This document shows, in pieces, positions 2,839 through 14,061 of a stretch of 28,694 bases of DNA; position 1 is the stretch's first letter; each line of letters begins with the position of its first letter. The notes under the pieces are model-generated. The model ran no database searches. It saw only the letters and a list, made by a program, of their open reading frames with translations, and had not been told where the DNA came from. The DNA is from a virus (Duplodnaviria > Caudoviricetes). Made by a program: the position numbers and the translations under genes. The stretch lies in IMG/VR virus record IMGVR_UViG_3300020156_000190, positions 1 through 28,694 of that record. One strand, given 5' to 3'.

Positions 2839-3066
2839 CTATTGCATTGTCTTAGTTTTTCGTGTCTTATTAAGACACTGAACTTCAAAAAAATTTTGCA
2901 TGTCTACTTTGAAAAGATCGCTTAACACTACAACCTCATCAATATAAAATTTAGATTTACCATTTTCTTTTTTGGTATATCCACTCACAGAGAGGTTAAG
3001 TTGTTTAGCAACTTCTTTTTTAGATAGACCAGCGATGACCCGGGCTGCTTTGATGGTCAGCGTCAT
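2839..3066 (-). CDS. Cro-like XRE-family HTH regulator
   Basis: IKAARVIAGLSKKEVAKQLNLSVSGYTKKENG HTH; divergent from the repressor; GGAGGTG RBS. Confidence 0.88.
   Translation of the reverse strand: MTLTIKAARVIAGLSKKEVAKQLNLSVSGYTKKENGKSKFYIDEVVVLSDLFKVDMQNFFEVQCLNKTRKTKTMQ
2862..2878. promoter_or_regulatory. 17-bp operator inside the 3' end of cro
   Basis: GTGTCTT-ATT-AAGACAC, perfect 7-bp arms identical to the operator at 3086. Confidence 0.75.
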
Positions 3067-3085: not shown

Positions 3086-3186
3086 GTGTCTTTTTAAGAC
3101 ACCTTAAATATAACATCAAAGTCCCTTGAGGTCAACCACAAAAAGACACGTTTTTATATTTTTGTTGCATTTCGTGTCTTTTTGTG
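3086..3186. promoter_or_regulatory. Lysis-lysogeny switch: operators and divergent promoters
   Basis: Operator GTGTCTT-TTT-AAGACAC at 3086-3102. A 14-bp inverted pair, CACAAAAAGACACG (3137-3150) and CGTGTCTTTTTGTG (3173-3186), carries half-sites. Leftward sigmaA promoter: TTGACC (3135-3130), 17 bp, TATATT (3112-3107) with extended TG. Confidence 0.8.
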
Positions 3187-6180: not shown

Positions 6181-6209
6181 ATTATACACGAACACATGTT
6201 CTTGTTCAA
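6181..6209 (-). promoter_or_regulatory. SigmaA promoter with a LexA (Cheo) SOS box in the spacer
   Basis: TTGAAC (6209-6204), 17 bp, TATAAT (6186-6181); CGAAC-ACAT-GTTCT at 6189-6202. Confidence 0.75.
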
Positions 6210-6275: not shown

Positions 6276-6482
6276 TTATGCCTCTGTGGTCTTTTCTTCT
6301 TCACGTTTTATTTTCTCTTCGATGGCTTCCAAGATAAAAGCGTTTCGGCTCATACCAGCTTTTTGGGCTGCTTCATCTATCCGGTCACGGTCGCCCCGTT
6401 TCCCCCACAACTTTATTTGATCGTAGTTTGCAGCGTTATATTTGTTTTTCGCCCGGGTGGACGCCTTACCTTGCATCTCCAT
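6276..6482 (-). CDS. Ribbon-helix-helix (Arc/CopG-like) regulator
   Basis: KYNAANYDQIKLW...RIDEAAQKAGMSRNAFILEAIEEK; GAGGTG RBS. Confidence 0.8.
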   Translation of the reverse strand: MEMQGKASTRAKNKYNAANYDQIKLWGKRGDRDRIDEAAQKAGMSRNAFILEAIEEKIKREEEKTTEA

Positions 6483-6516: not shown

Positions 6517-6570
6517 ATACTTGAACCAGTATAAAAAACTCTTGACCATATACTTGAACCAGTATATAAT
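6517..6570 (+). promoter_or_regulatory. Strong sigmaA promoter with two identical 17-bp operator repeats
   Basis: TTGACC (6542-6547), 17 bp, TATAAT (6565-6570); ATACTTGAACCAGTATA at 6517-6533 and 6550-6566. Confidence 0.8.
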
Positions 6571-6599: not shown

Positions 6600-6725
6600 A
6601 TGAAAGAAATGATTGGGTTCCTCACAGCAGTCATTCAATTACTTACCGCAGCGCTGCTGCTACAGAAAACCCGTGAGGAAAAGAAAAAAGGAACCAAACG
6701 CAGCCGACCGGGCAAACGTAAATAG
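6600..6725 (+). CDS. Small hydrophobic peptide with basic tail, putative type I toxin (41 aa)
   Basis: Not in the ORF track. MKEMIGFLTAVIQLLTAALLLQKTREEKKKGTKRSRPGKRK; GGGAGGAGGTGA upstream; hairpin at 6733-6752. Confidence 0.7.
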   Translation: MKEMIGFLTAVIQLLTAALLLQKTREEKKKGTKRSRPGKRK

Positions 6726-7136: not shown

Positions 7137-7173
7137 CACAGGGGCTTCGGCCCCTCTAAGGAGGATAACGGGA

Positions 7174-7344: not shown

Positions 7345-7383
7345 TCAATGGGGCGTAGACCCCTTCAAAGGAGGACATGAGTA

Positions 7384-7850: not shown

Positions 7851-8060
7851 ATGGTAAAACCCTTTGATCGGGCCGAGCTTGAAAACTCAATTGTTGAGGA
7901 TATAGAAAAGGCTATGATAAAAAAGCACAATGAGCGAGAAAGGATCGGCAAAATCACCGGGGCAATCCTAGGAATTATATTCATGTTTGCCGCCATTTTT
8001 AACACTGACATGATCAACTGGGGGACCGTCTGGGAAGACGTTAAAAATATGTTGCCATAG
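7851..8060 (+). CDS. Small membrane protein (69 aa)
   Basis: AAGGAGG RBS; TM segment ITGAILGIIFMFAAIF; ends at a terminator. Confidence 0.75.
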   Translation: MVKPFDRAELENSIVEDIEKAMIKKHNERERIGKITGAILGIIFMFAAIFNTDMINWGTVWEDVKNMLP

Positions 8061-8101
8061 TGACAAAGCCCACCGACCATATAGGTTAGTGGGCTTTGTC
8101 A
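8061..8101. terminator. Long hairpin, probable bidirectional terminator
   Basis: TGACAAAGCCCAC...GTGGGCTTTGTCA, 13-bp perfect arms, between convergent units. Confidence 0.7.
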
Positions 8102-8105
8102 TGTA

Positions 8106-8407
8106 CGTCAGTTTGACGGGGGTTGAAGCGTCCCCCAAAACGAGGAAAGTTGAACCGCCCTCAATATGAGGGTACTTGAGTATTAACCAGTTTGGTTAGT
8201 ACTCGACAATGCGTCGAGGGCTTAACTATTACCAAACTGGTAAGGGTTCAGCGAGGGACAAATTGTCCGGTACTCACTTACCGTCAAATTGACGGGTACT
8301 GAACACCTCTTGTTTTGAGAGGGGTTGAGTATATACCAACGTGGTAGGTACTGCGTTGTCCTCGTTTTAGGAACAACTAAAAAAGGGTAGCGCAATTTGC
8401 GCCACCC
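8106..8407. repeat. Array of 12 variable palindromes on a ~26-bp period with a conserved linker
   Basis: Palindrome centres at 8112, 8139, 8165, 8191, 8210, 8236, 8262, 8288, 8314, 8340, 8366 and 8396; core CA-NNN-TG; linkers of the GGTACT(G/C)A or GGGGTTGA type. Confidence 0.9.
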
Positions 8408-8416
8408 CATAACATA

Positions 8417-9091
8417 TTATTTTGCTTCTTCCGCTGCAATGCGTTCGCGATGACGTGGCAGAGCGCGTGTGCTGATGTTGGCATACTGTCCGTATATAGT
8501 ATCTGATACTTTAATATCCAGTCCAAACTTATCTGCCATCGACATTAGATTTACAGTGTCGTCTAACACCTCTTGTCTGTAGACGAGCATTTCAGGGGTC
8601 ATTTGGTCCTTTTTTATCATTTTAGGGTAACCGAACATTGTAGAGACTGCTTTGTTCGCAATGGTGTTGGCTTTGATGAAATCTGGCTTGCAGGGATCAC
8701 GAAATGCTTCTTTCAATCTTGCCATAGCTTCCTTTTGATGTTCCTTATCAAGCATGCGGAATACTTGAAATCCCTCTAGCCCGGATGCCTGGCGGAGCGA
8801 CTTAAGCATCTCAAAAACCCAGCGTTTGAACTCTTTAGCTTCTTTCTTGCGGCTCTCAAACACTGCGTCGTAAATCCCGTATTCATTGACAATTAGCATT
8901 TCTTGTACCCTACCAAGCGAATCTGGGATGTGGCCGTTTGAAACGGCTTCGTCATCTAAACGTTCCTTGATTCGTTTCGCTTTCAGATTCAAGACTTTGG
9001 CGATGTCTGCCAAGACTGCCCACCAATCGCCCGGCTCCTTTTCAACAAAGCGAATATCATGCCCATTCCAATTTTCTACGCGAATTTCCAA
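8417..9091 (-). CDS. Bro-N domain (antirepressor-like) DNA-binding protein
   Basis: ENWNGHDIRFV...WWAVLADIAKVL...DSLGRVQEMLIVNEYGIYDAVFESRKKEAKEFKRWV; probable TTG start at 9091 (track start 9106). Confidence 0.88.
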   Translation of the reverse strand: MEIRVENWNGHDIRFVEKEPGDWWAVLADIAKVLNLKAKRIKERLDDEAVSNGHIPDSLGRVQEMLIVNEYGIYDAVFESRKKEAKEFKRWVFEMLKSLRQASGLEGFQVFRMLDKEHQKEAMARLKEAFRDPCKPDFIKANTIANKAVSTMFGYPKMIKKDQMTPEMLVYRQEVLDDTVNLMSMADKFGLDIKVSDTIYGQYANISTRALPRHRERIAAEEAK

Positions 9092-9148
9092 TAAAACGCC
9101 CCCCATTCAAATGTATTAAATAGGATGCCGAATCATGTTGGGAATACA

Positions 9149-9178
9149 ATACTACCATAAGCAACTGGAAAAACGCAA
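9149..9178 (-). promoter_or_regulatory. Putative sigmaA promoter of the Bro-N gene
   Basis: TTGCGT (9178-9173), 18 bp, TAGTAT (9154-9149) with extended TG. Confidence 0.5.
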
Positions 9179-9200
9179 CGTTCGCATCACACACGAACAG

Positions 9201-9234
9201 AAAAAAGCCCCATCAACTGAATGACAGGGCTTCT
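9201..9234 (-). terminator. Terminator of the lysis operon
   Basis: Imperfect stem AAGCCC...GGGCTT followed by a T-run on the minus strand. Confidence 0.55.
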
Positions 9235-9264
9235 ACTGGTGCTACCGGATTTGAATCTGTTATA

Positions 9265-13035: not shown

Positions 13036-14061
13036 CTACTGTACATGTTTATCATTAGAATAAAACACTATTTTATTGAATGTTGGCTTGATGTAATGCT
13101 TTGCAAGCACCCCCAGCGCTACCGGCATGGCTAAGCTGCAAGATAGAATCCAAATCCTAGTAAGATAAACATTTTGAACTCCTACCATTTGTAGCAAATT
13201 ATACCTTAGGCTTAAATCAATGAATAATTTGTGATACATAAAAATATAGAGCGAGAAACTCCCAACATAACCAATCCATTTTAATATCACTAGATTTTTA
13301 AACTTAGATACAACTTGGTAAAGATTGAACAGCAATCCAAATACCAATAAGGTATACACCAACAAATAATCGTTTGGAGGATTAGACCAAATCGAATGAA
13401 TTAAGCCTTTATACTCAAAGATTGTTAGCAACAATATAACCAACAACAGTCCCAAAAAATTAGTTCTCATCCCAGTTAATTTGGGCAAATAATTATGAAG
13501 CATCATCCCAAGGGAGTACACGAATAAGTAAGTGCCCCCAAGTAAATTTCCCCCACCACCCATGATATTGCCTATCACCGTGTGGGCAGTAATGTAGTTC
13601 GAAATTAAATATATAACTATGAGTATGCCAATATGGTATAAACAATTGTTCTTAAAGTTAATGACTTTATATAAAATAGTCGAACAAAGTACCAATTGAA
13701 TATAGAAAGCAAAGAAATAAAACGGTGGAGACGCTGAGAATGTTGCCAATTGATTGATAAACGTAATAAAGTCGAATCTCATGCTGTTAACAAAAACATG
13801 ATAGACAAAAGAAGCTATAATGTAAGATGTTATAGGGGCCCTTAGCCTATACCAAAGATATTTATGGTCTATCTCATTCCTACCTGAGATTGAAACTGAA
13901 GAGGTTATTCCGGCTAATAATATAAATAGGGTTACCGAAAAACCAGTATGAAGCAAAATCAATTGGTTATCAAAAATAATTCCTGCCGTATGATTTAAAA
14001 TGACAGCCAATATTGCAACTACCTTCATCAAATCTAACCACTCATATCTTTGTTTAGACAC
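13036..14061 (-). CDS. Acyltransferase-3 (OafA/OatA-like) integral membrane O-acyltransferase
   Basis: RYEWLDLMKVVAILAVILNH, VTLFILLAG and GSFSLYIFMYH motifs; about 10 hydrophobic segments; visibly AT-rich. Confidence 0.88.
   Translation of the reverse strand: MSKQRYEWLDLMKVVAILAVILNHTAGIIFDNQLILLHTGFSVTLFILLAGITSSVSISGRNEIDHKYLWYRLRAPITSYIIASFVYHVFVNSMRFDFITFINQLATFSASPPFYFFAFYIQLVLCSTILYKVINFKNNCLYHIGILIVIYLISNYITAHTVIGNIMGGGGNLLGGTYLFVYSLGMMLHNYLPKLTGMRTNFLGLLLVILLLTIFEYKGLIHSIWSNPPNDYLLVYTLLVFGLLFNLYQVVSKFKNLVILKWIGYVGSFSLYIFMYHKLFIDLSLRYNLLQMVGVQNVYLTRIWILSCSLAMPVALGVLAKHYIKPTFNKIVFYSNDKHVQ

What the first reader, a model, noticed from the sequence alone, without database searches (positions are those of the whole stretch)
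8106..8407. Phased array of 12 different palindromes (26-bp period) downstream of the Bro-N gene: candidate undescribed system
Seen in sequence: units CGTCA-gtt-TGACG, CCCCA-aaa-CGAGG, CCCTCA-ata-TGAGGG, TAACCA-gtt-TGGTTA, CTCGACA-atg-CGTCGAG, TTACCA-aac-TGGTAA, GGACA-aat-TGTCC, CCGTCA-aat-TGACGG, CCTCTTG-ttt-TGAGAGG, TACCA-acg-TGGTA, GTTGTCCTCG-ttt-TAGGAACAAC and GGGTAGCGCA-att-TGCGCCACCC. Centre-to-centre spacings are 27, 26, 26, 19, 26, 26, 26, 26, 26, 26 and 30. Most units are followed at a fixed offset by a linker such as GGGGTTGA, AGGGTTCA, GGTACTCA, GGTACTGA or GGTACTGC. The arms differ between units yet stay largely self-complementary, so this is not simple decay of a tandem repeat. 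The 26-bp period argues against coding. The layout is the reverse of CRISPR: a constant short linker and a variable palindrome. Inference, three alternatives: (a) a library of operator variants acting as decoy or sensor for DNA-binding antirepressors of other phages; (b) donor cassettes that diversify antirepressor genes; (c) a tandem-hairpin RNA in the Bro-N 3' UTR processed into small RNAs. I know of no published description of this element, but I could not search.
Basis: partly seen in the sequence, partly recalled or inferred. Interest (0 to 1): 0.95.

Follow-up and report, generated by a model that had tools for sequence, protein, structure and literature searches.

The report
Phage panel of rivals' operator sites
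This soil phage carries a precisely spaced row of eleven different DNA palindromes that match sites lying inside the 'antirepressor' genes of other phages, sites that those genes' own proteins likely bind, so the row likely works as a broad decoy for rival phages' regulators.

Summary
The array is real (phased score 13; shuffles max 6) but was misparsed: each unit is a 29-bp pseudo-palindrome T(C/G)A-10-NNN-10-T(C/G)A overlapping its neighbour by 3 bp. It is an insertion between the Bro-N stop and its terminator (empty site in two studies) and recurs in another gene context (L281), where inner half-sites are conserved (48/54) and centres are not (13/27). Units match the variable palindrome inside genes of another Bro-N subfamily. 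In that subfamily five residues on one helix face predict the palindrome class (81/106, controls 24-40), so the palindromes are likely each protein's own operator. The array covers the five classes seen in 106/110 proteins and lacks the phage's own two sites. Best reading: a multi-specificity operator panel acting as a decoy; binding and function are untested. Donor-cassette and RNA readings are disfavoured. The scan noted self-embedded operators and looser stockpiles before on other DNA (e1-1933458, e1-6258295, e1-9802356); my ten literature searches found no description.

The parts
8101..8126 (+). Unit 1 (half-sites TGACG/TGACG) plus joint; right arm and joint identical, 13 of 13, to the in-gene site of Bro-N gene L320
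8128..8153 (+). Unit 2 (asymmetric, TGGGG/CGAGG) plus joint; asymmetric in L281 as well
8154..8179 (+). Unit 3 (TGAGG/TGAGG) plus joint
8180..8202 (+). Unit 4 (TGGTT/TGGTT); overlaps unit 5 through a 19-bp step that L281 shares
8199..8224 (+). Unit 5 (TGTCG/CGTCG) plus joint
8225..8250 (+). Unit 6 (TGGTA/TGGTA) plus joint
8251..8276 (+). Unit 7 (TGTCC/TGTCC) plus joint; 25 of 29 to the in-gene site of L311
8277..8302 (+). Unit 8 (TGACG/TGACG) plus joint; 27 of 29 to the in-gene site of L310; its 13-bp core is also the in-gene palindrome of five ORF6N loci
8303..8328 (+). Unit 9 (CAAGA/TGAGA) plus joint; right arm and joint identical, 13 of 13, to the in-gene site of L083
8329..8354 (+). Unit 10 (TGGTA/TGGTA) plus joint; right arm and joint 12 of 13 to the in-gene site of L323
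8355..8380 (+). Unit 11, degenerate inner arms, paired outer arms
8384..8408 (-).
8061..8101 (-). Ancestral terminator hairpin of the Bro-N cassette; in L083, L310 and L320 it follows the Bro-N stop directly
8417..9106 (-). Adjacent Bro-N gene (PF02498, PHROG 9976); a different subfamily from the one whose sites fill the array
8933..8947 (-). In-gene palindrome of the phage's own Bro-N (centre TCA on the sense strand); not represented in the array (at most 4 of 10 inner bases)
9177..9253 (-). Upstream segment of the cassette, 87% identical to the segment in front of the cognate-type Bro-N gene L310
1287..1299 (-). In-gene palindrome of the phage's own ORF6N gene (CATCA/TGATG); same core geometry, but no exact copy in the array (best 8 of 10 inner bases)

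Best explanation
The element is a mobile, non-coding row of eleven different 29-bp palindromes that match the variable palindrome inside other phages' Bro-N 'antirepressor' genes; each palindrome is likely the operator of the protein whose gene contains it, and the row likely acts as a decoy that would sequester those foreign proteins. Steps shown: the anatomy, the insertion into the cassette's 3' end, the recurrence in another context, the conservation of half-sites over centres, the match to gene sites, and the statistical coupling between helix residues and palindrome class. Steps inferred: that a Bro-N dimer reads the two half-sites through helix 42-52 with the wing at the A/T-rich centre; that binding inside its own gene limits the gene's expression (as recalled for HK022 Roi); that the 26-bp period (2.5 helical turns) lets neighbouring dimers load on opposite faces; that one to three sites per specificity matter mainly when the phage DNA is amplified during lytic growth, when they would titrate the Bro-N proteins of co-resident or co-infecting elements and uncouple their autoregulation or their action on DNA. 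How units are collected is unknown; their shared orientation and gene-like outer arms point to capture from genes rather than duplication and drift.
For: Anatomy and chance. Empty site, 8096 joined to 8417 with 7 letters between, in runs X2 and X6 of two studies; same terminator directly after the stop in L083, L310, L320. Homologous 9-unit array L281 with the same unit order and 19-bp step between unrelated genes. Conservation window vs L281: inner non-core bases 48/54, centre 13/27 (Fisher p=2e-4), left outer 26/45 (p=5e-4), right outer 36/45. Gene sites: 13 of 18 distinct genes of the subfamily carry the palindrome, 12 of those 13 bounded by TCA and TGA. Units scored on a profile of 55 loop variants: mean 5.9 against -4.7 (sd 1.8) for random palindromes that keep ends, core and centre, 0 of 5000. 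Right arm plus joint identical or nearly so to gene sites found without the array: 13/13 (L320), 13/13 (L083), 12/13 (L323). Helix coupling: the top non-loop columns by mutual information are 44, 47, 43, 48, 51 (92 proteins); these five predict the class in 81/106 (78/106 without neighbours of 65% identity or more), the rest of the domain in 43 and 22, the residues between helix and loop in 30 and 12, random sets of five in 28.7 on average, max 51. In ORF6N the matching helix residue is Lys/Arg in 54/54 proteins of the CGTCA class, Asn in 25/25 of the CATCA class, Asp in 13/13 of a third (99 of 120 parsed). The model (pLDDT 94) puts 42-52 in a helix and the loop in the first wing strand, and resembles Mbp1 (Z 7.3, rmsd 2.9, 89 aligned), whose homologue PCG2 places helix B in the major groove and the wing in the minor groove (PMC4333399, passages). 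All 17 TG-starting half-sites of the 22 fall in the five classes that cover 106/110 proteins; the phage's own two sites are absent. Ectopic binding sites can block a phage in trans (PMC4488673, abstract and section 3.3).
Against: No binding or phenotype was tested. Helix-loop coupling could be protein packing or joint reading of some other target; no coordinates were available to measure contacts, and in PCG2 the wing, not helix B, carries most specificity. The five helix columns were picked after seeing the data; on a tree, single-column co-change reached only p=0.012 and 0.007 uncorrected among 67 columns; the ORF6N counts have no phylogenetic control. L310 and L311 were found by similarity to the array, and the protein library grew from them, which favours a match. 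The 17 half-sites are not independent. Five of 18 genes lack the palindrome. One to three sites per class in a single-copy prophage is a weak sink; the lambda precedent used 20-40 copies. The contig is partial, so a cognate gene elsewhere in this phage is not excluded. Long arrays are rare: one homologue, none among 401 related genomes. The 26-bp period in other loci was imposed by my patterns. G-T pairs outnumber A-C on one strand.
Confidence: 0.5

Rival explanations
1. Sensor or tether: the units are binding sites, but they act in cis. Occupancy by an incoming element's Bro-N protein changes local transcription, or tethers this DNA to the protein (looping, partition-like hitch-hiking), and so reports or exploits another phage's arrival.
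For: All the binding-site evidence above. L281 lies about 90 bases upstream of a DUF3800-like gene matching a PADLOC candidate (PDC-M04A, 7e-8); the L200 cluster lies between divergent genes beside a ParE/RelE-like gene, and L245 upstream of a CopG-like gene. The fold also matches the pSK1 Par centromere-binding domain (Z 6.0, rmsd 1.8, 53 aligned).
Against: In the window the array lies between convergent genes and two terminator-like hairpins, with no promoter-like site inside, so no output is apparent. The Par match covers only the common winged-helix core.
Confidence: 0.2
2. Neutral relic or by-product: palindromes left by dead Bro-N genes, or amplified by slippage and template switching, with no present role.
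For: The cassette slot holds cognate-type genes in relatives. Looser, unphased clusters of such palindromes occur in non-coding stretches (L309, L312, L313, L315, L245). Pairs are lost as often as gained between the two arrays. Earlier scan notes read similar clusters as relics (e1-6077001, e1-9802356).
Against: No coding remnant lies between units; joints fall at the TCA/TGA ends. Half-sites are conserved far more than centres between two arrays in unrelated contexts. The array points opposite to the cassette gene. Unit similarity does not fall with distance (Spearman -0.07, p=0.63), as simple tandem duplication would predict.
Confidence: 0.14
3. Silent donor cassettes that rewrite the variable wing segment of Bro-N or ORF6N genes.
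For: Units are co-oriented and correspond to the variable coding segment from the Ser codon to the Asp/Glu codon; the palindrome class changes 40 times on a tree of the rest of the domain.
Against: The central Lys codon is not kept, several units hold stops in frame, flanking homology is three bases, no cognate-type gene is on this contig, 0 of 24 cognate gene loci have an array nearby, and the helix would have to change as well.
Confidence: 0.08
4. Tandem-hairpin RNA or single-stranded DNA structure, processed or bound unit by unit.
For: Both strands fold far better than shuffles (z -8.7 and -7.3); G-T exceeds A-C on the + strand (13:8, 9:2); the oral-phage and gut-phage triplets also show one-strand wobbles.
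Against: No Watson-Crick pair changed on both sides in 90 pairs; 13 lost, 12 gained. Sequence, not pairing, is what is kept. No Rfam family reaches its threshold. Many gene sites are stably asymmetric.
Confidence: 0.08

Closest known systems
HK022 Roi and its binding site within the roi gene (Clerget and Boccard 1996, PMID 8763934; reference and a one-line role seen in PMC3430580; the binding result is recalled, paper not held)
   Same: An antirepressor-like phage DNA-binding protein with a site inside its own coding sequence.
   Different: A single site for one protein; here a family-wide helix-to-palindrome code and a separate non-coding panel of many specificities.
Decoy or titration loci: ectopic lambda ori blocking lambda (PMC4488673, abstract and section 3.3 read); P1 incA, datA and lactococcal Per (recalled)
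   Same: Binding sites placed away from their normal position that could sequester a protein in trans.
   Different: Those repeat one site for one protein, often the element's own; this panel holds different sites for foreign proteins and lacks the phage's own.
Lambda ori iterons inside gene O (19-bp imperfect inverted repeats; PMC7466680, passages)
   Same: Hyphenated palindromes with an A-rich centre inside the gene of the protein that binds them.
   Different: Iterons are near-identical and serve initiation; these units differ and match Bro-N genes. Replication-initiator genes were not surveyed.
TIGR arrays, including stem-loop arrays (PMC12045711, passages; bioRxiv 10.64898/2026.09.09.750476, abstract and outline)
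   Same: Phased phage arrays with low sequence conservation, short CA/TG-like motifs and variable palindromes.
   Different: TIGR units are 36 nt or longer with two 8-12-nt guides and a Nop-domain protein; here 26 bp, arms complementary to each other, no Nop protein among the ORFs scanned.
KilA-N/APSES winged-helix domains (Mbp1, PCG2; PMC4333399 and PMC4862756, passages)
   Same: Predicted fold of the cognate Bro-N domain; helix B and wing contact DNA.
   Different: Fungal proteins read non-self promoter elements mainly through the wing; PMC4862756 states that little is known of target sequences outside fungi.

Membership tests
CRISPR array | Constant repeat alternating with unique spacers | tested here: not met
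   Pairwise unit identity 6-17 of 26; only the 3-base joint and the CA/TG core recur.
CRISPR array | cas genes or an Rfam CRISPR repeat | tested here: inconclusive
   None among 30 ORFs scanned and no Rfam hit at threshold; contig is partial.
TIGR-Tas | 36-nt dual-spacer or longer stem-loop units with box C/D motifs around 8-12-nt guides | tested here: not met
   Period 26; the variable parts pair with each other and match Bro-N coding palindromes.
TIGR-Tas | Nop-domain Tas protein | tested here: inconclusive
   Not among 30 ORFs scanned with Pfam; contig is partial.
Self-embedded operator (Roi type) | Palindrome inside the coding sequence of the DNA-binding domain | tested here: met
   13 of 18 distinct cognate-type genes; also the window's own Bro-N and ORF6N.
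Self-embedded operator (Roi type) | Specificity residues track the palindrome | tested here: met
   81/106 against 24-43 for controls; ORF6N 54/54, 25/25, 13/13. Statistical; columns chosen post hoc.
Self-embedded operator (Roi type) | Protein binds the site | not testable with these tools
   Needs EMSA, SELEX or ChIP.
Titration/decoy locus | Binding sites away from a regulated promoter | tested here: met
   Between convergent genes and two terminator-like hairpins; no promoter-like site in 8100-8410.
Titration/decoy locus | Many copies of one site | tested here: not met
   One to three units per class.
Titration/decoy locus | Sequesters the protein in trans | not testable with these tools
   Needs a multicopy or deletion experiment.
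Silent-cassette gene conversion | Cassettes keep coding capacity and share flanking homology with an expression locus | tested here: not met
   Stops in frame, central codon free, 3-base flanks.
Structured RNA array | Compensatory changes between homologues | tested here: not met
   0 double Watson-Crick changes in 90 pairs, but only two arrays compared.
Phage replication iteron array | Near-identical repeats in or beside an initiator gene | tested here: not met
   Units differ; flanks are Bro-N and a small membrane-protein ORF.

The most novel reading that the evidence does not exclude
An acquisition-built memory of rival elements: 26-bp operator pieces are captured from invading phages' Bro-N genes and joined at their TCA/TGA ends into an ordered, mobile array that covers the family's specificity spectrum and excludes self, giving the phage a DNA-level, pan-antirepressor sponge or sensor.
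Probability: 0.25. Interest if true: 0.95.

Novelty: new variant of a known kind. Interest (0 to 1): 0.78.

Why it matters
Bro-N and ORF6N domains are among the commonest phage DNA-binding domains, are annotated 'antirepressor' by habit, and have almost no known targets. The coupling found here gives a ready code: the gene spells the site, and a few helix residues predict it, so each prediction can be tested with one protein and one 29-bp probe. The array is a natural test set of eleven such sites. If it sequesters or senses rival proteins, it is phage-versus-phage conflict carried out by non-coding DNA with many specificities at once, unlike known single-site titration loci, and it raises the question of how units are collected in register.

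Tried and rejected
Link to the adjacent Bro-N family: 0 of 80 loci above score 6.4 against 11.8 for the window. Link to ORF6N loci: 0 of 21. Arrays beside cognate-type genes: 0 of 24. ORF 7851-8060 has no relative in viral contigs. First pattern gave 2 coding repeats. Genome-collection pattern: 26 loci, all tandem or REP-like repeats. Two-mismatch pattern in 401 related genomes: 18 genomes, 20 loci, none palindromic. blastn of the array in phages and plasmids: 4 and 2 chance-level hits. Rfam: nothing at threshold. No RNA holder listed. PDB sequence search: nothing. Ideas dropped: cI-operator library (own operator GTGTCTT-NNN-AAGACAC has another core; other phages' cI operators not surveyed), IS3 circle junctions (arms do not match as element ends; judged by eye), CRISPR-repeat mimics and tRNA-like arms (recalled resemblance only), TIGR (unit size), lambda-type iteron library (better match found in Bro-N genes; initiators not surveyed). 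More DNA around L281 could not be obtained, so its element type is unknown.

Full report
Setting. The window is a whole 28.7-kb virus record: a temperate siphophage with serine integrase, CI, ORF6N gene, Bro-N gene, lysis and structural genes. Named relatives of its proteins are mostly Paenibacillus and allied genera. The replication module is off the contig. The array lies between a small + strand ORF (7851-8060) and the Bro-N gene (8417-9106, minus strand).

Observation. The phased score is 13 against a maximum of 6 in 300 shuffles. Unit 12 is out of phase and scores as a minus-strand terminator. The source run covers the array at flat depth.

It is an insertion, and it moves. In runs X2 and X6, of two studies, contigs of close relatives join 8096 to 8417 with 7 letters between. 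The hairpin at 8061-8101 follows the Bro-N stop directly in L083, L310 and L320. None of 80 loci of the adjacent Bro-N's relatives holds a phased array. A three-unit pattern in metagenomes returned 114 loci from 36 of 64 parts scanned. After scoring palindromy and unit diversity these held: the window's own contig (L262, left out); a homologous nine-unit array, L281, with the same unit order and the same 19-bp step, between an unassigned ORF and a DUF3800-like ORF; an unrelated five-unit cluster of different palindromes in an archaeal-looking locus (L200, L226); a long looser cluster (L245); and triplets in gut and oral phages also seen in viral contigs. The remaining loci were tandem repeats or scored low. 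The 26-bp period was imposed by the pattern, so these hits do not show that 26 is preferred. The genome collection gave 26 loci, none of this kind.

What the units are. Searching 401 genomes of a related family with the array gave 11 short matches in 10 genomes. Two lie inside Bro-N genes of another subfamily, at the segment F-S-x-x-x-K-L-x-x-[TV]-[DE]-G; one is a small intergenic array (L312); five lie in non-coding stretches with scattered palindromes; three are single hairpins. Of 18 distinct genes of that subfamily for which I had DNA, 13 carry the palindrome and 12 of those run from TCA to TGA, exactly the array's 29-bp unit; five lack it. Tiling such sites with a 3-base overlap gives the 26-bp period. 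Unit 8 matches L310 at 27 of 29. Right arm plus joint match gene sites found independently of the array at 13/13 (unit 1, L320), 13/13 (unit 9, L083) and 12/13 (unit 10, L323). Against a profile of 55 loop variants from 123 of 130 proteins, the 11 units average 5.9; random palindromes with the same ends, core and centre average -4.7, and 0 of 5000 sets reach the observed value. The library grew from L310 and L311, which were found through the array, so some bias remains. Units 1 and 8 also equal the commonest ORF6N in-gene core (41 of 76 parsed proteins). The cassette slot that holds the window's Bro-N holds a cognate-type gene in L310 and L083, with shared tail and terminator, and in L310 the upstream segment too.

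Are the palindromes operators? Among 110 dereplicated proteins (92 in classes of four or more), the columns outside the loop with most information about palindrome class are 44, 47, 43, 48 and 51, one face of helix 42-52 in the model. These five predict the class in 81 of 106 proteins when neighbours of 75% identity are excluded and 78 at 65%; the rest of the domain gives 43 and 22. Residues between helix and loop give 30 and 12, the next five best columns 40 and 24, random sets 28.7 on average (max 51), so block inheritance does not explain it. On a tree of the rest of the domain, single-column co-change is weaker (p=0.012 and 0.007 uncorrected). Among 25 proteins with Arg at position 67, 22 of 23 with the CTCA left arm share one helix motif and the two with other left arms do not (codons inferred). 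In ORF6N one helix residue is Lys/Arg in 54/54, Asn in 25/25 and Asp in 13/13 proteins of three classes, which fits the usual Arg-G, Asn-A, Asp-C readout (general knowledge); no phylogenetic control was run there. The window-type Bro-N shows the same trend in a small set. The fold resembles baculovirus Orf22 (Z 10.0) and Mbp1 (Z 7.3); in the Mbp1 homologue PCG2 helix B enters the major groove but the wing carries most specificity (PMC4333399, passages). Protein packing between helix and wing is not excluded. HK022 Roi is cited in PMC3430580 (passages); that it binds its own gene is recalled.

Is the array under constraint? Between window and L281, inner non-core bases are 48/54 identical, centres 13/27, left outer arms 26/45, right outer arms 36/45. 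Pairing is not what is kept: 47 pairs unchanged, 13 lost, 12 gained, none changed to another Watson-Crick pair. That is the pattern of protein sites with an unread spacer, not of RNA stems or coding donors. Against this, G-T exceeds A-C on the + strand (13:8, 9:2), and only two arrays were compared. All 17 TG-starting half-sites of 22 fall in the five classes covering 106 of 110 proteins, and neither of the phage's own in-gene sites is copied.

Mechanism. I put about 0.7 on a panel of binding sites for foreign Bro-N (perhaps also ORF6N) proteins, split between decoy (0.5) and cis sensor or tether (0.2). Decoy is favoured because the window copy sits in a transcriptional dead end. Its weakness is copy number; the lambda precedent used 20-40 copies (PMC4488673, section 3.3), so the effect would come with lytic amplification. 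What the phage gains is open. The C-terminal part of L310 matches a PADLOC defence candidate (PDC-S13, 4e-11), which hints that some cognate proteins act in inter-phage conflict. Relic (0.14), donor (0.08) and RNA (0.08) remain.

Novelty. Earlier scan notes on other genomes report self-embedded operators (e1-1933458, e1-9802356) and looser stockpiles (e1-6258295, e1-6077001); others saw no operator role (e1-416226, e1-499585). They are not independent support. What this locus adds is exact tiling, an empty site, a conserved homologue in another context, coverage of the known classes and controls for the covariation. I file it as a new variant of decoy-site loci, not as a member of any array family, with interest 0.78.

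Noticed in passing
window 2862-2878 and 3086-3102: Two copies of a 17-bp palindrome GTGTCTT-NNN-AAGACAC, in the cro-like gene and the cro-cI gap, with half-sites nearby: likely the CI operator.
   Followed up: no
window 6518-6531 and 6551-6564: Two copies of TACTTGAACCAGTA over a strong promoter-like site between a ribbon-helix-helix gene (6276-6482) and a 41-aa hydrophobic, basic ORF (6600-6725); L083 has the same layout with a different palindrome. Looks like an autoregulated small-toxin module.
   Followed up: no
window 6187-6200: CGAAC-N4-GTTCT, like a Bacillota SOS box (consensus recalled); L083 has a YolD-like gene at this position that the window seems to lack.
   Followed up: no
window 7140-7170 and 7350-7380: Short GC-rich hairpins directly before AAGGAGG ribosome sites in front of successive small unknown ORFs; cassette-like.
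   Followed up: no
L200 1960-2215 (also L226): Archaeal-looking locus with five phased different palindromes, joints all TCA, plus two more, between divergent genes beside a ParE/RelE-like gene.
   Followed up: partly
L245 about 1300-2300: Roughly 1 kb non-coding stretch upstream of a CopG-like gene packed with palindromes of this class, only three in 26-bp phase.
   Followed up: partly
L309, L313/L319 (G625, G527): Homologous 1.5-kb non-coding stretches after a tape-measure-like gene with scattered palindromes of this class.
   Followed up: partly
L098 1990-2070 and L090 1490-1572: Three-unit 26-bp clusters in gut phages (upstream of an HTH gene) and oral phages (end of an HTH gene), sharing outer ACYG...CGGT ends across distant hosts.
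   Followed up: partly
L322, L339 and 23 proteins of the LTT class: A stably asymmetric in-gene site (ACCA left, TGAC right), mirrored by the asymmetry of array unit 2.
   Followed up: partly
L281 755-782: A further palindrome of the same class at the end of the upstream gene.
   Followed up: no
window 13036-14061: Low-GC acyltransferase-3 gene inserted among tail genes; possible surface-modifying moron.
   Followed up: no
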